Of a stretch of DNA of 30,000 nt, positions 1 through 12,000 are shown in pieces. Position numbers: made by a program. Numbering within the stretch: position 1 is the first letter of the stretch; every line of letters starts with the position of its first letter. The stretch is taken from positions 3,986,081 to 4,016,080 of the forward strand of contig NZ_CP096258.1 of assembly GCF_023205015.1 (NCBI RefSeq). The letters are read 5' to 3'. The stretch is from Providencia rettgeri. Lineage in GTDB: Bacteria > Pseudomonadota > Gammaproteobacteria > Enterobacterales > Enterobacteriaceae.

Positions 1-3000
1 AATTAACCGCAACTGCACTAAATAACATCCATACGCAAAATGCGAGCAATAAGCATGGAATAGAAATCCATAAATTACGATTGGCAATACGCTGCCCTGT
101 TTTTTGCCAAAATTGAATATCTTCAGGCCGCCAATCCTGTATAACACCGTTATTTGGCTGTACAGCTACGCTATTAACATTATCTCGTTGAGACATAAAT
201 CACCCCGATAAATACAATTTCTGCTTGCAGTGTGTGGCGAATAGACCACCGTGAAGCTGATCTAAATCAAGAGAGATTTAAATGAAATATGCGTGATTTT
301 TTTCGTTAACCACTAGAGGAGTATTAGGAGTACAAAACAATAACAAATTGAATTAAAACAAAAAAAACTCATTACTGCGTAATTTTATGTGTTGGAATTT
401 AAAGCGAATAATTCAATGGGATATTAAGGAGTAATACCGAAGTGGCATATTCAATTTTATATAATAGAGAAACAATATCTACGTTATCAAAAAATAATGA
501 ATAAACGTAAAGAGTAGAAAGGAACACTTATGTCTATTGCTTATCACCGATTTTCAATCATTAACCAAGTTATTGGTCTAATGCTATTGATTGCCGTACT
601 CGGTATTATTGGCATGACAATTTCAAATAGTATGATTATTAGTGTGCAAGGAAATGCACATGCAATTAATAAGTCAGGCTCATTGCGGATGCAAAGCTAT
701 CATTTACTTTCATTAGTGCCGCTCAACCAATATTCTGACGTATATGTTCGTGAGCTTGAAAAAAATTTATTAAGCAATGAACTGACACAAGTTGTCGAAA
801 TAGAAGATTTAAATCCGCAATTTGCAGAGCTTTATCAATATTGGGTTACAGAATTAAAACCAGTACTTAACCATGCAGTTTCTCCTAATGATGCACGTCT
901 TGCTGTCGTTACCTTTGTTAATAAACTCGATGCATTAGTTCGTAATATTGATGAAAAAACAGAACAAAAAATAACCTATGTAGCCATCACCCAAATGGTA
1001 TTTATTAGCCTCGTTTCATTGCTACTTATTTTTGCTATCTGCCATTTTAGAAAGAAAATTTATACACCTTGGCTTAAGTTACTTCATATGGTGAATGCAA
1101 TTAGCCATCAAGATTTTAGTCGGCGCTTCCCTGTCGGCAAAAAACTAGATGAGCTAAATTCACTCGGTCAAACGTTAAATCAAATGTCGGATGAGCTCGC
1201 ACAGAGTTACCATCAATTAGAATCCCGAGTTATCGAAAAAACGGCTGATCTACAAAATAAAAATAATGTATTACTCTATTTATACCAATCTAATCGCACC
1301 TTACATGCCATTGGGCCACTATCTGTCAGGCTAGAAAAAGTATTATCTGAACTGAAAAGCTTAATGCCATTACAACATATCAGATTGAGGCTATATGAAG
1401 AAAATAATGATGCCTGCTTTCAAGATATTCATTGTCCTGAAAACAAGGAACACTGCCTCAAATCCCCCAAAATAGCTGAGCACCTTAAAGTAATATCATG
1501 GGAGATTTCCGATAACTTACAGCGTTATGGCATGATTTTGGCTGAAATAGATATAAACCAGCCATTATCTGAAGAGCAAAATAATTTAGTGCTCATGCTA
1601 GTCAAACAAATTGCTGGAATGCTAGCAATGGAGCACCAATTAGAACAACAGCAGCAGTTACTGATTATGGATGAACGCTCGGCGATTGCGAGAGAATTGC
1701 ATGATTCAATCGCACAATCATTATCTTGCCTCAAAATGCAAATTAGTTATCTGCAAATGCAACCTAAAACATTGCCAACTAAGCACCAAGCACTATTAAA
1801 CGAAATGCGCAATGAAATAAATTCCGCCTATAGCCAATTACGTGAACTTTTAACAACCTTCAGACTAAAGTTAACTGAATCAGGCCTATTCCCTGCCTTA
1901 GAAAGCACAATCCAAGAATTCAGCCAACGTCTTGGTTTTCAAATTGAATTAGATTACCGAATTCCAGCCAAAAGCCTCTCTCCACATCAATCTATTCATA
2001 TTATTCAGATAATCCGAGAAGCGTTAAGTAATATTCTCAAGCATGCTAATGCAAACTGGTCACAAATCTCATTAATCGAAAGTAACGGGCTAATCACCAT
2101 GACGATAGAAGACAATGGGGAAGGGATCCAACCTCAGCCAACAAAAAATAACCATTATGGATTGATTATTATGAGAGAAAGAGCCCTAAGCCTAAATGGA
2201 AAATATCAAATTTCCCCAAGAGTTCAGGGTGGCACTACGGTTAATGTCGTATTTCCACTGACTGTGGCCTAATTAAATTGGAGTAACTCATTAATGAAAA
2301 ATGACAATAAACTGACTGGGCAATCTACCATTTTACTGATTGATGACCACCCAATGCTACGTAACGGTGTTAAACAATTAATTAGTTTAGAACCCACATT
2401 GAAGGTCATTGGTGAAGCAGACGATGGAATAACGGGTATTAAAATTGCGGAAGAGCAAGACCCCGATTTAATCCTATTAGATCTCAATATGCCAGGTATG
2501 AATGGCTTTGAAGTACTTGATAATTTACGTAGCCGCGAACTTTCAGGCCGAATTATCTTATTTACCGTATCCAATTACGGTGAAGACTTAATTCATGCGT
2601 TAAAACGAGGTGCTGATGGCTATTTACTCAAAGATATGGAACCCGAAAAACTCATTGTTGCATTAAAAGAAGCAGCAAGTGGTAAAATGGTCGTTAGCCC
2701 AACGCTTGCCTCCATTTTAGCTGAATCCTTAAGAGATAACCGAGCCTCTACAGAACATAATTTATTGGCATTAACCCCAAGAGAAACCCATATCCTAGAT
2801 TTAATCTCTCAGGGGCTATCAAATAAGATGATTGCGAATAAATTACAAATTACAGAGAGCACAGTCAAAGTCCACGTCAAACACTTACTAAAGAAACTCA
2901 ATTTAAAATCGCGCGTTGAGGCCGCTATTTGGGTTTTACAACAAAAGTAATGACACAGCACCTCAACTTAATGCATCGAGCCATGGCTGTTGTTTTGGGT

Positions 3001-9000: not shown

Positions 9001-12000
9001 TTAACTAACTTTCTAATATCCCCTTCCCGCACAATCTTTAACTGTCCATTTTCACAACGAATATCTAACCCTTTTGCGGTAAACGTTGAGCAAAACACCA
9101 CGTGTCGCGCATTTTGGGTAATATCAATAAACCCACCCGCACCCGGGCAAATATTGCCTAACAAAGTCGCATTGACATGGCCACTGGCATCCATTTCCCC
9201 TGCCCCCATATACGTGATATCAACGCCTGCACCGTTGTAGTACAACATTTGGTCTTGGTGACTAATCATCGCTGATAGGTTACGGCCTATGCCAAAATCA
9301 ATACCGCCAGCTTGGACGCCGCCCCAAATCCCTGACTCCACGGTGATATCAACGCGCTTAGTTGCATTTTCTTCCTGAATAATGGAGCCGATAACATCGT
9401 TTGGAATACCCGTTCCTAAGTTAATCACACAGTTTTCATATAGATAACGGCATGCAATTCGCCCAATCAATTTGCGAATATCCAAAGGTAATGGCGTAGT
9501 TTGTTGGACAGGGGTGCGAATATCACCGCATAGAGTTGGGTCAAAGAACCAGCTAGAGGATTGGCGATGATCTTCTTCAGGGTTATCGCACACGACAATG
9601 TGGTCAATAAAGCTTGCAGGAACAGTGACACGCTTGGGATGTAGAGTCCCTTCTTCAACGCAATACTTCACTTGTGCAATCACTTTGCCGCCAAAGCGTT
9701 TAGCCGCCAGTACCGCATGTAAGACTTCTAACGTCATCGCTTCTTCATCGGTGGTGAGGTTACCTTTACTATCAGCGTGAGTTCCTCTGATCACCACGAC
9801 ATCTAAAGGAATTTCTGGGTACCATAACCATTCTTCCCCTTTGAAATTCACTTTTTCAACCAAAGGAGGAAGTGCCAACGTTTTCGCGTTCATCCTACCG
9901 CCTTCAAGATCAGGATCGATGAATGTCCCTAACCCCACTTTGGATAAACGCCCCGGTAAACCCGCAGCCATTGCTCCATACAAGTGCACCATTTGCCCTT
10001 GTGGGAGGCAATACGCTTCGACTTGGTTATCATTAATCATTTGCATCCATCGAGGCGCTAGCCCCCAATGAGAACCAATGATCCGTTTTACCATCCCTTC
10101 GTGGGCAAAGTGTTGATTCCCTCGAATACGGTTACATTGCCCTGCCGCATGAACGAGAGTGAGTTGATTTGGCGCGCCCTCGGATAAAAAGCGTTGTTCA
10201 ATTGCTGATAAAATAGATTCAGCAGCGCTGGTTAATGTCATTCCCACAGTACAAATCGTATCGCCATTATTAATTAATTTAGCGGCATCTTGTTTAGAAA
10301 TAAATTTATTATTCATGATAAAACCTACCTGAAGGCTAATATTTCATAGCCCCTTTTGATTAATTAAAAACTAATTTAGACTTTAGTTATTTAAAGAGTA
10401 ATATCGTAATTTCAAATCTTTCTTACTTATTTTACCATTCCATGTTCTAGGAAAATTACGTGTAAATATAATTCTTACTGGAACTTTATACGTTGGCACC
10501 CTATCTTTTAACCATTCAATAATTTCTTTACTGGTTAAACATACTTGATTCTCAGGGATAATAAATGCAATGGGTTCTTCGCCATAAATGGTGCTTTCAA
10601 TTGGGATGACAGCAACCTCATTAACACCTGGGTAATTAGAAATTAAATCTTCGATTTCAATAGAATATATTTTTTCCCCACCACGGTTAATCATATCTTT
10701 AATTCGGTCTTGGATATAAAGAAAACCATCATCATCCCTATAACCAATATCCCCTGTGAAAAACCAACCATCGTTAAATGATGTCTTATTTGCAGGGCTA
10801 TCAGGCCAATAACGTTGGATAACAACATCCCCTTTTACCCAAATATTACCTGTCGTGTTAGCGGGTTTATCTTCACCTTTATCATCACGTATGGCCACTT
10901 CTAACCCGGGAATCGGTGTGCCTGAGCTCGCTTTCTTATCACTATAGCGGATATCATCTCGAAATACCGTGGCTGGTGATGATGTCTCCGTCAAACCATA
11001 AACAGAATGAATGGATGTTTTGGCAAATATATAAGAAAGCTCTTTAATGGTACCTTCATTTAAATGACCAGCTCCACAAGCAATTTTTTTTAATGAATTA
11101 AATCGTTCCAAATTAATACTTTTATTTTCTTTTATTTTTTGAATTAATAATATAAATACCGTTGGCGAACCATGTAAGAATGTTATTTTTTCTTTCGCAA
11201 TTGTTGAAATAATATCTTTCGCATTAAATTTCTTCTGAAGATAGATTGTACCACCTATATGAATAAATAATGCCAAAATAGCGGAGAGCCCCGTAATATG
11301 ATAAATCGGTACAGCCAAAATTGTTTTATCGTGCTCAGTTAACTTTAACGTTTCCTGATAGGCATATACGGCAGATAATATATTCTTGTGCGTGATCACC
11401 GCACCTTTCGGCGCTCCCGTTGTGCCCGAAGTGAATATCACCACTGCTGGGTCTTCTTCATTAACTTGGTTAATAAAATTAATTTCATCAGTAAGGGTTA
11501 TATTATTCCACTGAGAAAGGCTAACTCCTTTTTCACTGAGTTGTGCCAACCATGGTTGATATGTATCATCCCAAAAAACAGCATCCGCATTAATACAAGA
11601 TAAATGCTCTTTACCTTCAAACTCTTTCATTTTGGTACTCAAGGGAATTACCTGAATACCCAGACCTACCGCAGCATAAAATAATTGGCAAAATTCAATC
11701 GTATTTCCCCAGCCAAGTACAATCCGGTCACCTTTTTTCAACTGCACGGTGGTTGTTAGCCACAACATTGTTTGGTTTACTTTCACAAGTAATTGGTGAT
11801 AACTCCAACTTTGCTCTTCAAATACAATGGCAACAGCGTCTGGCTGCACTTTTGCTCTCTGTAATAAGCTTTGGTAGATGTTTGAATTTGGCACAAGCAT
11901 GGACACACTCCGATACTGCTGAATATGACTGATATGCTATCAATGTATAAAATACACTCCGATAAATTAGTGCCAATCTTCACAAATTATTCACACCCTT

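What the first reader, a model, noticed from the sequence alone, without database searches (positions are those of the whole stretch)
2963..11906. Seven-gene operon predicted to run an acyl-CoA (beta-oxidation-like) cleavage of a 2-deoxy-pentonate-type hydroxy acid into acetyl-CoA and glycerate
Seen in the sequence: seven co-directional genes with 9-120 nt gaps.

Predicted steps:
- An ACS-family acid-sugar MFS transporter imports a hydroxy acid.
- An ANL ligase (priming) and a YdiF-like CoA-transferase (CoA recycling) make the CoA thioester.
- A FabG-like SDR oxidises the 3-OH group.
- A thiolase releases acetyl-CoA plus an (n-2) acyl-CoA.

Inference: a glycerate kinase in the same operon, under a sugar-diacid (CdaR) type regulator, implies the n-2 product is glyceryl-CoA/glycerate. 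That makes the substrate a C5 3,4,5-trihydroxy acid such as 2-deoxy-D-ribonate.

As I recall, an acyl-CoA route for deoxyribonate was proposed only from mutant-fitness genetics in Klebsiella michiganensis (Price et al. 2019). None of its enzymes is biochemically characterised as far as I know.

Alternative: a glycerate/sugar-acid module (MFS + kinase + CdaR) merely juxtaposed with an unrelated short-chain acyl-CoA module.
Basis: partly seen in the sequence, partly recalled or inferred. Interest (0 to 1): 0.7.

Follow-up and report, generated by a model that had tools for sequence, protein, structure and literature searches.

The report
Providencia deoxyribonate acyl-CoA catabolic operon
This seven-gene cluster in Providencia rettgeri matches, gene for gene, a Klebsiella cluster that mutant-fitness genetics tied to growth on 2-deoxyribonate, so it most likely breaks that DNA-derived acid into acetyl-CoA and glycerate; it is a new member of a known pathway whose chemistry is still untested.

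Summary
Seven co-directional minus-strand genes lie between narXL and a yghU-like GST gene. In order they encode an ANL ligase, a YdiF-like CoA-transferase, a FabG-like SDR, a thiolase, an ACS-type MFS transporter, a glycerate kinase and a CdaR-type regulator.

The window is Providencia rettgeri. All seven proteins match, in the same order, the Klebsiella michiganensis cluster at 53-81% identity. Price et al. 2019 showed by mutant fitness that this cluster is specifically needed for growth on 2-deoxy-D-ribonate. Providencia lacks that cluster's lactonase and second MFS.

The rival reading, two unrelated modules placed side by side, is rejected. In 80 species-level loci, 56 keep ligase, transferase, SDR and thiolase, and 33 of those also have a glycerate kinase within 10 kb. 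This holds across at least eight gene orders and three transporter families, from Enterobacterales to Bacillota and Brachyspira.

All catalytic motifs are intact. The K. pneumoniae ortholog of the SDR is the crystal structure 6T6N, "FabG2 (NADH-dependent)".

New details are a covarying hairpin after the thiolase gene and a thiolase His-Asn-Gly signature.

Function in Providencia is inferred, and no thioester step has been shown biochemically. Verdict: new member of a known kind, moderate interest.

The parts
11907..12393 (-). Promoter/control region between the ligase gene and the divergent yghU-like gene. Conserved boxes are TTGTGCA (12028-12022), TGTGAA (11995-11990), TGTGAA (11984-11979) followed by GGCAC (11974-11970), and an AT-rich -10-like block ATTTTATACATT (11953-11942).
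   Evidence: The boxes are invariant in an alignment of five Providencia species plus Moellerella, while the sequence between them varies. A related TTGTGAG..GGCA box lies upstream of the Klebsiella/Raoultella ligase genes. A consensus scan finds TTGGCA-16-TATTTT here, but promoter-like sites over the whole region are no more frequent than in shuffles. Assigning the boxes to CRP or CdaR is inference only.
10383..11906 (-). ANL (class I adenylate-forming) acyl-CoA ligase; the likely true start is ATG 11900. Proposed role: 2-deoxyribonate + ATP + CoA -> deoxyribonyl-CoA, the priming step.
   Evidence: Pfam AMP-binding + AMP-binding_C. It reaches no NCBIfam equivalog cut-off. Motifs TSGTTGAPK 159-167, YGLTE 303-307 and the C-terminal GKI lysine 492 are present. 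It is 53% identical to the K. michiganensis ligase at the same position. The best solved relative is only FadD13, E 1e-66.
8748..10316 (-). Family I, single-chain, YdiF-like CoA-transferase. Proposed role: glyceryl-CoA + deoxyribonate (or acetate) -> D-glycerate + acyl-CoA, which recycles CoA.
   Evidence: Pfam CoA_trans. E 4e-97 to E. coli YdiF (2AHU); Glu327 in TVESG aligns with the YdiF residue Glu333 in TVETG, which I recall as the catalytic glutamate. It is 71% identical to the Klebsiella cluster protein. The exact protein is annotated only as 'acyl CoA:acetate/3-ketoacid CoA transferase' in P. rettgeri.
7984..8721 (-). FabG-like classical SDR, NAD(H)-type. Proposed role: deoxyribonyl-CoA + NAD+ -> 3-keto-4,5-dihydroxypentanoyl-CoA.
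   Evidence: adh_short. Motifs TGSARGIG 11-18, Asp36 at the end of strand beta2, NNAG 88-91 and Tyr153/Lys157 are present. E 2e-118 to PDB 6T6N/7TZP, about 74% identical by the K. pneumoniae cluster SDR it essentially matches. [quoted passage not shown] It scores above NCBIfam's FabG equivalog cut-off, and PGAP names its ortholog fabG, which is a likely over-annotation.
6790..7974 (-). Thiolase. Proposed role: 3-keto-4,5-dihydroxypentanoyl-CoA + CoA -> acetyl-CoA + D-glyceryl-CoA.
   Evidence: Thiolase_N/C. Cys91, Asn318, His350 and Cys380 are present. It is 81% identical to the Klebsiella cluster thiolase. The signature His158-Asn159-Gly160 is kept in nearly all cluster-linked thiolases of 56% identity or more; a few Acidobacteriota/Propionivibrio-type loci read Pro-Asn-Gly instead. 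The solved acetoacetyl-CoA thiolase 8JG3 and the second thiolases of Lachnospiraceae have His-Met-Gly.
6749..6771 (-). Conserved GC-rich hairpin immediately after the thiolase stop codon (AGCCCGACG-TGGGG-CGTCGGGCT). It has no U-tract on the operon strand.
   Evidence: Found by the terminator scan. It occurs once per locus, always right after the thiolase gene, in 20 Providencia/Klebsiella/Raoultella/Franconibacter-type loci and nowhere else in the window. RNAalifold predicts 10 pairs, 2 of them with compensatory changes; one pair is seen as C-G, A-U and U-A. No Rfam family matches.
6695..6732 (-). Second hairpin in the thiolase-MFS gap (stem AACAGGTA / TACCTGTT), followed by TTCAC.
   Evidence: MFE folds of the gap in six Providencia/Moellerella loci show the stem kept while the loop sequence varies between species. 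Not tested statistically.
5329..6684 (-). MFS transporter of the anion:cation symporter (ACS) type; the likely true start is ATG 6669. Proposed role: deoxyribonate uptake.
   Evidence: MFS_1. It scores 288 bits against the D-galactonate transporter subfamily and 297 against HpaX, both below cut-off. It is 67% identical to the first MFS of the Klebsiella cluster, the position of BWI76_RS23715, whose mutants had mean fitness -4.0 on deoxyribonate. It is only 20% identical to the second Klebsiella MFS.
4132..5295 (-). Class I glycerate kinase. Proposed role: D-glycerate + ATP -> phosphoglycerate, the entry into glycolysis.
   Evidence: Gly_kinase E 6e-134. TIGR00045 scores 451 bits, above cut-off, but the GlxK and GarK equivalogs score below cut-off. 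It is 56-57% identical to the Klebsiella cluster kinase. Solved relatives are 3CWC and 1TO6.
2963..4117 (-). CdaR-family regulator (Diacid_rec + PucR-type HTH), the last gene of the cluster. Its stop codon is 12 nt from the stop of the convergent narL.
   Evidence: Pfam. The E. coli CdaR equivalog scores 157 bits against a cut-off of 612, so it is a family member and not the CdaR ortholog. It is 53% identical to the terminal regulator of the Klebsiella cluster. A Diacid_rec regulator also sits in the Zobellella and Siminovitchia versions.

Best explanation
**What it is.** The cluster is the Providencia rettgeri counterpart of the Klebsiella michiganensis acyl-CoA pathway for 2-deoxy-D-ribonate.

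**Proposed steps.** Every chemical step below is inferred; none was shown here.
1. The MFS transporter imports deoxyribonate.
2. The ANL ligase makes the first deoxyribonyl-CoA at the cost of ATP.
3. The NAD-dependent FabG-like SDR oxidises the 3-hydroxyl group. That hydroxyl has the D/(R)-like geometry that FabG/PhaB-type enzymes accept.
4. The thiolase cleaves 3-keto-4,5-dihydroxypentanoyl-CoA into acetyl-CoA and D-glyceryl-CoA.
5. The YdiF-like CoA-transferase passes CoA from glyceryl-CoA to incoming deoxyribonate (or to acetate). This releases D-glycerate and makes the ligase a priming enzyme only.
6. Glycerate kinase feeds glycerate into glycolysis.

**Why no other beta-oxidation enzymes are needed.** The substrate already carries the 3-hydroxyl group, so no acyl-CoA dehydrogenase or enoyl-CoA hydratase is required, and none is encoded.

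**Regulation (inferred).** The CdaR-type protein, encoded last, probably activates a promoter upstream of the ligase gene that carries conserved TGTGAA boxes. A conserved hairpin pair after the thiolase gene probably sets different expression or mRNA stability for the four enzyme genes versus the transporter, kinase and regulator genes.
For: **Shown here**
- Gene content and order are as stated.
- The window is P. rettgeri.
- All seven proteins are collinear with a K. michiganensis locus at 53-81% identity and with a K. pneumoniae locus.
- All catalytic motifs are intact.
- The SDR has an acidic residue (Asp36) at the NAD-preference position. Its K. pneumoniae ortholog was crystallised with NADH as 'FabG2 (NADH-dependent)'.
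- Of 80 species-level loci, 56 keep the ligase, transferase, SDR and thiolase. Of those 56, 33 have a glycerate kinase within 10 kb.
- The kinase is embedded among the CoA genes in Zobellella (ligase, transferase, SDR, kinase, CdaR, TRAP, thiolase).
- The kinase sits beside TRAP or SSF transporters in Petroclostridium, Siminovitchia and Brachyspira.
- No acyl-CoA dehydrogenase or hydratase appears in any annotated version.

**From the literature**
- The Klebsiella cluster is specifically required for growth on deoxyribonate, and the same reaction scheme was proposed for it (PMC6365646).

**From established stereochemistry (inference)**
- 2-deoxy-D-ribonate is (3S,4R). Its C3-OH has the same spatial arrangement as (R)-3-hydroxybutyrate.
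- Its C4 becomes C2 of D-glycerate, the kinase substrate.
Against: - No experiment exists for Providencia.
- The proteins most likely to set specificity are the most diverged: ligase 53%, regulator 53%, kinase 56%.
- The lactonase and second MFS of the Klebsiella and Pseudomonas clusters are absent.
- No thioester step (ligase, thiolase, transferase) has been shown in vitro in any organism. Searches of the paper library for deoxyribonyl-CoA, glyceryl-CoA and the Klebsiella locus tags return only the 2019 paper for this pathway.
- The thiolase and SDR are close in sequence to acetoacetyl-CoA enzymes.
- 23 of the 56 core loci have no glycerate kinase within 10 kb, and K. pneumoniae ATCC 13883 lacks it at this site.
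- Whether the product is 2- or 3-phosphoglycerate is unknown.
Confidence: 0.72

Rival explanations
1. The enzyme logic is the same (3-hydroxyacyl-CoA oxidation and thiolysis to acetyl-CoA + glyceryl-CoA), but the physiological substrate in Providencia differs or is broader. It could be another 2-deoxypentonate stereoisomer or a related 3,4,5-trihydroxy acid.
For: - The ligase and regulator are only 53% identical to the Klebsiella proteins.
- The lactonase and second MFS are missing.
- Distant versions add an Hbd-type 3-hydroxyacyl-CoA dehydrogenase, from my knowledge (S)-specific, which suggests that more than one C3 stereoisomer is handled in some lineages.
Against: - The transporter is 67% identical to the Klebsiella MFS that has the strong deoxyribonate phenotype.
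- The whole cluster is collinear.
- The FabG-type SDR fits the D-configuration at C3 of 2-deoxy-D-ribonate.
Confidence: 0.15
2. It is a short-chain acid or ketone-body (acetoacetate / (R)-3-hydroxybutyrate) utilisation operon of the ato/fadX type. The glycerate kinase, MFS and CdaR genes would then be a separate sugar-acid module that merely lies next to it.
For: - The thiolase is most similar to solved acetoacetyl-CoA thiolases.
- The SDR passes the FabG equivalog cut-off and resembles acetoacetyl-CoA reductases.
- The transferase and ligase weakly match Staphylococcus FadX and FadD.
- A hairpin pair separates the two halves.
Against: - Glycerate kinase co-occurs with the CoA genes in 33 of 56 core loci, from Enterobacterales, Aeromonadales, Bacillota and Spirochaetota.
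- It does so in at least eight gene orders, sometimes interleaved, and with MFS, TRAP or SSF transporters.
- In the Serratia/Pragia type the MFS gene lies between the ligase and transferase genes.
- The Klebsiella cluster, including its kinase, had phenotypes only on deoxyribonate.
- The thiolase clade carries His-Asn-Gly in place of the His-Met-Gly of acetoacetyl-CoA thiolases.
Confidence: 0.04
3. The cluster runs in the biosynthetic direction: acetyl-CoA + glyceryl-CoA condense and are reduced to a trihydroxy acid. Alternatively, the SDR is a second fatty-acid-synthesis FabG, as its database name says.
For: - The thiolase groups with BktB-like 'biosynthetic' thiolases.
- The SDR is named FabG/FabG2 in PDB and RefSeq.
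Against: - The SDR is NAD(H)-type.
- An importer-type MFS and a kinase that feeds glycolysis are part of the unit.
- The Klebsiella mutants have a catabolic phenotype.
- There is no ACP-related gene in the cluster.
Confidence: 0.02

Closest known systems
Klebsiella michiganensis M5al deoxyribonate utilisation cluster BWI76_RS23695-RS23730 (Price et al. 2019, mSystems; acyl-CoA route)
   Same: Six gene families appear in the same order, plus the same terminal CdaR-type regulator: ligase, YdiF-like transferase, SDR, thiolase, ACS-type MFS, glycerate kinase. Identity is 53-81%. Both have the same conserved hairpin after the thiolase gene.
   Different: Providencia has no SMP-30/gluconolactonase-type lactonase and no second (sugar-porter-like) MFS. 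GC content is 43% against 60% (the 60% measured on the near-identical K. pneumoniae cluster). The chromosomal site differs: narXL / yghU in Providencia, against LysR or sugar-kinase neighbours in Klebsiella. There are no phenotype data for Providencia.
Pseudomonas simiae / Paraburkholderia oxidative deoxyribonate pathway (deoxyribonate dehydrogenase + beta-keto acid cleavage enzyme + glycerate kinase; Price et al. 2019)
   Same: The overall chemistry is the same: oxidation at C3, C2-C3 cleavage to an acetyl unit plus glyceryl-CoA, then glycerate kinase. According to the paper, the Klebsiella and Pseudomonas MFS transporters are homologous.
   Different: There the free acid is oxidised, and a BKACE enzyme cleaves it using acetyl-CoA. 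Here the thioester is made first and a thiolase does the cleavage. In that pathway the enzyme converting glyceryl-CoA to glycerate is unknown (PMC9007349). Here a CoA-transferase is the obvious candidate.
E. coli YdiF / Staphylococcus FadX CoA-transferases and their beta-oxidation clusters (ydiF-fadK region, fadXDEBA)
   Same: They share the single-chain family I CoA-transferase fold and the aligned glutamate (Glu333 in YdiF). The transferase is likewise paired with an ANL ligase and a thiolase.
   Different: Judging by the alignment, identity to YdiF is far lower than to the Klebsiella protein (E 4e-97; percent identity not computed). NCBIfam FadX scores 393 bits against a cut-off of 750. This cluster has no acyl-CoA dehydrogenase, hydratase or electron-transfer flavoprotein genes, and it carries a glycerate kinase instead.
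E. coli CdaR (SdaR)-regulated glucarate/galactarate/glycerate system (gud/gar genes with garK)
   Same: Both combine a Diacid_rec + PucR-HTH regulator, an ACS-type acid-sugar MFS and a class I glycerate kinase.
   Different: The regulator, kinase and transporter all score far below the E. coli equivalog cut-offs. There are no dehydratase, aldolase or reductase genes. Glycerate would arise from a thioester, not from tartronate semialdehyde.
K. pneumoniae 'FabG2 (NADH-dependent)', PDB 6T6N/6T6P/7TZP
   Same: It matches the SDR of the K. pneumoniae version of this cluster with one mismatch over 244 residues and matches the window SDR at E 2e-118; the K. pneumoniae cluster SDR is 74% identical to it. 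It was crystallised with NADH.
   Different: It was studied as a fatty-acid-synthesis FabG paralog and inhibitor target, not as a catabolic 3-hydroxyacyl-CoA dehydrogenase. The paper library held no assay with deoxyribonyl-CoA.

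Membership tests
Klebsiella-type acyl-CoA deoxyribonate cluster (Price 2019) | ANL CoA-synthetase as the first gene | tested here: met
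   53% identity over 495 residues to the K. michiganensis ligase at the same position.
Klebsiella-type acyl-CoA deoxyribonate cluster (Price 2019) | YdiF-like CoA-transferase, SDR-type beta-hydroxyacyl-CoA dehydrogenase and thiolase, adjacent and in this order | tested here: met
   71%, 72% and 81% identity, collinear. The same block is found in 56 of 80 species loci.
Klebsiella-type acyl-CoA deoxyribonate cluster (Price 2019) | MFS transporter orthologous to BWI76_RS23715 | tested here: met
   67% identity to the first MFS of the Klebsiella cluster and 20% to the second. Equating that gene with RS23715 rests on the gene order given in the paper.
Klebsiella-type acyl-CoA deoxyribonate cluster (Price 2019) | Glycerate kinase in the cluster | tested here: met
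   56-57% identity, same relative position.
Klebsiella-type acyl-CoA deoxyribonate cluster (Price 2019) | Lactonase (SMP-30/SGL) and second MFS | tested here: not met
   No tblastn match in the window-type Providencia or Moellerella loci, and no such ORF in the window. In Klebsiella these two genes had only mild phenotypes (-1.1 to -1.4), so they look accessory.
Klebsiella-type acyl-CoA deoxyribonate cluster (Price 2019) | Specific requirement for growth on 2-deoxy-D-ribonate | not testable with these tools
   This needs growth or fitness assays in Providencia.
Family I CoA-transferase (YdiF type) | Catalytic glutamate in the (S/T)E(S/T/N)G motif of a fused alpha-beta chain | tested here: met
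   Glu327 (TVESG) aligns with YdiF Glu333 (TVETG), which I recall as the catalytic glutamate; alignment spans residues 6-519. The residue is invariant in 12 orthologs.
Thiolase (type II-like) | Cys-Asn-His-Cys catalytic set | tested here: met
   Cys91, Asn318, His350, Cys380. Full-length alignment to 8JG3.
3-oxoacyl-ACP reductase FabG (the name given by NCBIfam/PGAP) | NADPH-dependent reductase of the fab cluster acting on acyl-ACP | tested here: inconclusive
   The sequence passes one FabG equivalog cut-off (363 vs 296 bits) but not TIGR01830 (296.6 vs 297.75). Asp36 and the NADH-bound ortholog structure point to NAD(H). The genomic context is catabolic, not fab. I do not file it as FabG.
E. 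coli CdaR / GarK / GlxK equivalogs | Score above the NCBIfam equivalog cut-off | tested here: not met
   CdaR 157 vs 612 bits; GlxK 339 vs 625; GarK 305 vs 686. They are members of the wider families only.

The most novel reading that the evidence does not exclude
The ligase, CoA-transferase, NAD-dependent SDR, His-Asn-Gly thiolase and glycerate kinase form a widespread module. It is still unrecognised in genome annotation and makes and consumes glyceryl-CoA. It is found from Enterobacterales to Bacillota and Spirochaetota with interchangeable MFS, TRAP or SSF importers. Its substrate range may go beyond deoxyribonate. Its CoA-transferase may be the missing natural enzyme that converts glyceryl-CoA to glycerate. 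The covarying hairpin after the thiolase gene may be a dedicated cis-regulatory RNA element of the operon.
Probability: 0.25. Interest if true: 0.6.

Novelty: new member of a known kind. Interest (0 to 1): 0.4.

Why it matters
- **Substrate and niche.** Price et al. describe deoxyribonate as a waste product of metabolism that is excreted in human urine. Providencia and Klebsiella colonise the urinary tract and gut, so the cluster may be a niche nutrient trait. That link is speculation.
- **Untested biochemistry.** The acyl-CoA route rests on genetics in one organism. Its ligase, thiolase and transferase have never been assayed.
- **Annotation.** Databases label the genes generically or wrongly: 'FabG', 'thiolase family protein', 'acyl CoA:acetate/3-ketoacid CoA transferase'.
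- **A better test bed.** The compact Providencia version and the broad phylogenetic linkage to glycerate kinase shown here give a clean, minimal gene set for reconstitution.
- **Possible use.** The set offers candidate natural enzymes for handling glyceryl-CoA, an intermediate of interest in synthetic one-carbon pathways (papers found).

Tried and rejected
- **Rfam.** A scan of the whole window at E<=1 gave no match, so the hairpins belong to no described RNA family.
- **Promoter scan.** Sigma-70 consensus sites were no more frequent than in shuffles (23 vs 25.3). The promoter is therefore inferred only from conservation. Terminator-like sites were about twice the expected number, but only the 6749-6771 hairpin is strong, and it lacks a U-tract on the operon strand.
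- **Dispersed repeat.** I tested whether the hairpin is a REP-like dispersed repeat. It is not: it occurs once in the window and once per related locus.
- **Plasmids.** A search with the transferase found close matches only in three K. pneumoniae records, so there is no sign of plasmid spread.
- **E. coli.** Only 1 of 5426 complete genomes carries the cluster.
- **Later literature.** Searches for deoxyribonyl-CoA, glyceryl-CoA and the BWI76 locus tags found nothing on this pathway beyond the 2019 paper. The primary FabG2 paper (Vella et al. 2021) is not in the library, so its assay substrates could not be checked.
- **CRP or CdaR sites.** I considered reading the TGTGAA boxes as CRP or CdaR sites. 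The spacing differs between Providencia and Klebsiella, so I leave this open.
- **Missing kinase in one strain.** K. pneumoniae ATCC 13883 lacks the kinase and regulator at this site. This is not due to masking (no N runs). I treat it as strain variation and did not pursue it.
- **Limits of the comparison.** The survey covers only the best 80 loci of one scan. It uses best tblastn hits with at least 60% coverage, so low-identity SDR, thiolase or ligase hits may be paralogs. 'Within 10 kb' does not mean 'same operon'.

Full report

Yes. The ORF listing shows seven minus-strand ORFs that fill 2963-11906:
- 10383-11906
- 8748-10316
- 7984-8721
- 6790-7974
- 5329-6684
- 4132-5295
- 2963-4117

The genes on both sides are on the + strand: narX 530-2272, narL 2294-2950 and a yghU-like glutathione-dependent oxidoreductase gene at 12394-13233. 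The seven genes therefore form a discrete directon.

In transcription order, Pfam and NCBIfam give:
1. an AMP-binding (ANL) ligase
2. a CoA_trans protein
3. a classical SDR resembling FabG
4. a thiolase
5. an MFS_1 transporter closest to the D-galactonate/HpaX (anion:cation symporter) subfamilies
6. a Gly_kinase protein
7. a Diacid_rec + PucR-HTH (CdaR-family) regulator

The gaps are 66, 26, 9, 105, 33 and 14 nt.

Two starts probably need adjusting. The ligase most likely begins at ATG 11900 and the MFS at ATG 6669. Both have a Shine-Dalgarno sequence at the right distance, and both match the lengths called in other Providencia genomes (505 and 446 aa).

**2. Where does the window come from?**

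Exact-sequence look-ups place the transferase, thiolase, kinase and regulator in Providencia rettgeri genomes. There they carry only generic names. The same seven-gene block, between narXL and the GST gene, is present in other Providencia strains and species and in a Moellerella MAG.

**3. Is it the Klebsiella deoxyribonate cluster?**

Price et al. 2019 (PMC6365646) describe a K. michiganensis M5al cluster in this order:
- CoA-synthetase (BWI76_RS23695)
- CoA-transferase (RS23700)
- beta-hydroxyacyl-CoA dehydrogenase (RS23705)
- thiolase (RS23710)
- MFS (RS23715)
- lactonase (RS23720)
- MFS (RS23725)
- glycerate kinase (RS23730)

The cluster was important for growth on deoxyribonate and in none of 92 other conditions. 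They proposed deoxyribonyl-CoA -> 3-keto-deoxyribonyl-CoA -> glyceryl-CoA + acetyl-CoA. In their scheme the transferase possibly releases glycerate and the kinase makes 2-phosphoglycerate.

I fetched a K. michiganensis chromosome locus (L086) and a K. pneumoniae locus (L001). Both have exactly this order, followed by a CdaR-type gene. The window proteins hit the collinear Klebsiella genes as follows:

| Window protein | Identity to K. michiganensis |
|---|---|
| ligase | 53% |
| CoA-transferase | 71% |
| SDR | 72% |
| thiolase | 81% |
| MFS | 67% |
| glycerate kinase | 56% |
| CdaR | 53% |

The window MFS matches the first Klebsiella MFS (67%) and not the second (20%). By position the first is RS23715, the transporter with the stronger phenotype.

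Providencia lacks the lactonase and the second MFS. Both had only mild phenotypes in Klebsiella. L086 is not strain M5al itself. Equating the two rests on species identity and the identical gene order.

**4. One functional unit or two neighbours?**

A genome scan with an alignment of transferase orthologs returned 80 loci, one per species. I scored each locus with tblastn for all cluster genes.
- 56 loci keep ligase, transferase, SDR and thiolase within 10 kb.
- 33 of those 56 also have a glycerate kinase within 10 kb.

The linkage survives extensive reshuffling:

| Lineage | Gene order |
|---|---|
| Pragia/Budvicia/Leminorella | ligase, MFS, transferase, SDR, thiolase, kinase, CdaR |
| Zobellella | ligase, transferase, SDR, kinase, CdaR, TRAP transporter, thiolase |
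| Petroclostridium | ligase, transferase, SDR, Hbd-type dehydrogenase, thiolase, TRAP, kinase |
| Siminovitchia (Bacillaceae) | SSF transporter, CdaR-type regulator, kinase, SSF transporter, ligase, transferase, SDR, thiolase |
| Brachyspira | ligase, transferase, SDR, thiolase, Hbd-type dehydrogenase, SSF transporter, kinase |

A genome has only a few glycerate kinase genes, so chance adjacency on this scale is not credible. Three unrelated transporter families have been swapped in while the kinase stayed. I therefore reject the juxtaposition reading.

There are caveats. Some lineages (Serratia fonticola group, Franconibacter, one K. pneumoniae strain) have no kinase at the site. A more distant group in Acidobacteriota and Propionivibrio keeps only the transferase and SDR, with or without the thiolase, and may do something else.

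**5. Do the proteins look competent, and what do they say about the chemistry?**

- **Transferase.** It aligns end to end with E. coli YdiF (E 4e-97). Glu327 aligns with YdiF Glu333, which I recall as the catalytic glutamate.
- **Thiolase.** It has Cys91, Asn318, His350 and Cys380.
- **Ligase.** It has the standard adenylation motifs and the C-terminal lysine.
- **SDR motifs.** It has the Gly-rich motif, NNAG, Tyr153/Lys157 and Asp36 at the end of strand beta2. From general knowledge of SDRs, that acidic residue indicates NAD(H) preference.
- **SDR structure.** Its best solved relative by a wide margin is 6T6N/7TZP (397 bits; the next FabG scores 244 bits). That structure matches the SDR encoded in the K. 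pneumoniae cluster with one mismatch over 244 residues. [quoted passage not shown]

So one enzyme of the pathway has been solved structurally, but under a fatty-acid-synthesis label. NCBIfam's FabG equivalog also accepts the window protein, and PGAP names the ortholog fabG. Given the context, this is probably an over-annotation.

Two further points are my inference.

First, 2-deoxy-D-ribonate is (3S,4R). Its C3 hydroxyl has the same spatial arrangement as (R)-3-hydroxyacyl thioesters, which are the substrates of FabG/PhaB-type SDRs and not of FadB/Hbd-type enzymes. Its C4 becomes C2 of D-glycerate. This explains the choice of SDR. It also explains why no acyl-CoA dehydrogenase or hydratase gene occurs in any version.

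Second, nearly all cluster-linked thiolases of 56% identity or more carry His-Asn-Gly (His158-Asn159-Gly160 here); a few Acidobacteriota/Propionivibrio-type loci have Pro-Asn-Gly. The solved acetoacetyl-CoA thiolase 8JG3 and the second thiolases in Lachnospiraceae loci have His-Met-Gly at the same position. As I recall, that methionine lines the substrate tunnel of biosynthetic thiolases. A polar replacement would suit a dihydroxylated acyl group. This is a lead, not a result.

**6. Operon architecture and regulation**

The region upstream of the ligase gene has invariant boxes in Providencia and Moellerella, separated by variable sequence:
- TTGTGCA
- two TGTGAA boxes 11 nt apart
- GGCAC
- ATTTTATACATT

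A related TTGTGAG..GGCA box precedes the Klebsiella-type ligase genes. These are candidate sites for the CdaR-type activator and/or CRP. I could not tell which.

Immediately after the thiolase stop codon lies a 9-10 bp GC-rich hairpin (6749-6771).
- It occurs once per locus, in 20 of the 89 loci held at that point, always at this position.
- It is not repeated elsewhere in the window.
- It shows compensatory changes at two of ten pairs; one pair is seen as C-G, A-U and U-A.
- It has no U-tract on the operon strand.
- A second hairpin follows at 6695-6732, with a conserved stem and a variable loop.
- No Rfam family matches.

The likeliest role is to set different stability or read-through for the four enzyme genes versus the transporter, kinase and regulator genes. 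Because the regulator is the last gene, some basal expression of the distal part is needed. An internal promoter in this 120-nt gap is possible. None of this was tested.

The regulator's stop codon is 12 nt from that of the convergent narL, with no terminator between them.

**7. Comparison with what is known, and novelty**

The cluster is a compact member of the Klebsiella-type acyl-CoA deoxyribonate pathway. [quoted passage not shown] For that route GapMind still lists the glyceryl-CoA hydrolase as unknown. In parts it is related to YdiF/FadX beta-oxidation clusters and to the CdaR/GarK sugar-acid system, but it is not a member of either.

Library searches found no later work on the thioester steps. 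The cluster is common in Klebsiella: the 90% cluster that holds the Klebsiella transferase (and also copies of the neighbouring ligase) has 5513 member sequences. It is nearly absent from E. coli, where 1 of 5426 genomes carries it.

**Verdict.** The finding is a new member of a known, genetically defined but biochemically untested pathway. What this analysis adds:
- the orthology test
- the cross-phylum linkage to glycerate kinase
- the link to the FabG2 crystal structure
- the thiolase His-Asn-Gly signature
- the covarying intercistronic hairpin

Interest is moderate (0.4).

Noticed in passing
window 6749-6771 and 6695-6732 (minus strand): There are two hairpins in the thiolase-MFS gap. The first is conserved from Providencia to Klebsiella, Raoultella and Franconibacter with compensatory base changes. 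It matches no Rfam family and has no U-tract, so it may be a processing, stability or attenuation element.
   Followed up: partly
window 11940-12030: Conserved TTGTGCA / TGTGAA-N5-TGTGAA / GGCAC boxes and an AT-rich -10-like block lie upstream of the ligase gene. They are candidate CdaR and/or CRP sites. A similar box occurs in the Klebsiella-type loci with different spacing.
   Followed up: partly
window 2950-2963: The stop codons of narL (+) and the CdaR-type gene (-) are 12 nt apart, and no terminator hairpin lies between them. Convergent transcripts would overlap.
   Followed up: no
window 17382-21506: Homologues of the E. coli yegT-yegU-yegV genes and of yegW are present: nucleoside permease, ADP-ribosylglycohydrolase-family protein, PfkB kinase and GntR regulator. 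DNA identity to E. coli is about 69%. This is a nucleoside-related cluster of unknown function a few kb from the deoxyribonate genes.
   Followed up: partly
window 13886-17074 and 21616-26255: Other genes here are a cytosine/purine-type permease (13886-15154), a di-haem cytochrome c peroxidase (15668-17074) and a DMSO-reductase-like set on the minus strand (molybdopterin subunit 23799-26255, Fe-S subunit 23170-23787, DmsC 22317-23168, chaperone 21616-22254). In other P. rettgeri strains a fimbrial cluster follows the GST gene instead, so this flank varies between strains.
   Followed up: no
L090 (E. coli GF4-3, NZ_CP053258.1 1872707-1882882): This is the only E. coli genome of 5426 with the cluster. 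It is the Klebsiella type, about 89% DNA identity, with no glycerate kinase and a frameshifted second MFS. The cluster sits between mhpR and cynX, where from memory lacI-lacZYA normally lies. PGAP names the SDR 'fabG'.
   Followed up: partly
L017 (K. pneumoniae ATCC 13883) versus L001: The type-strain locus has the cluster up to the second MFS but lacks the glycerate kinase and CdaR genes at that position. This is not due to masked sequence.
   Followed up: partly
L088, L058, L059 (Petroclostridium, Brachyspira, Siminovitchia): Distant versions of the cluster add an Hbd-type (3HCDH) dehydrogenase next to the FabG-like SDR. They also use TRAP or SSF importers plus a small unannotated protein of about 190 aa after the SSF gene. 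This may allow handling of a second C3 stereoisomer.
   Followed up: no
cluster 1: The 90%-identity protein cluster of the Klebsiella transferase also contains the neighbouring 518-aa ligase sequences. The two genes overlap by 4 nt, so some fused gene calls may have merged the two families in that collection.
   Followed up: no
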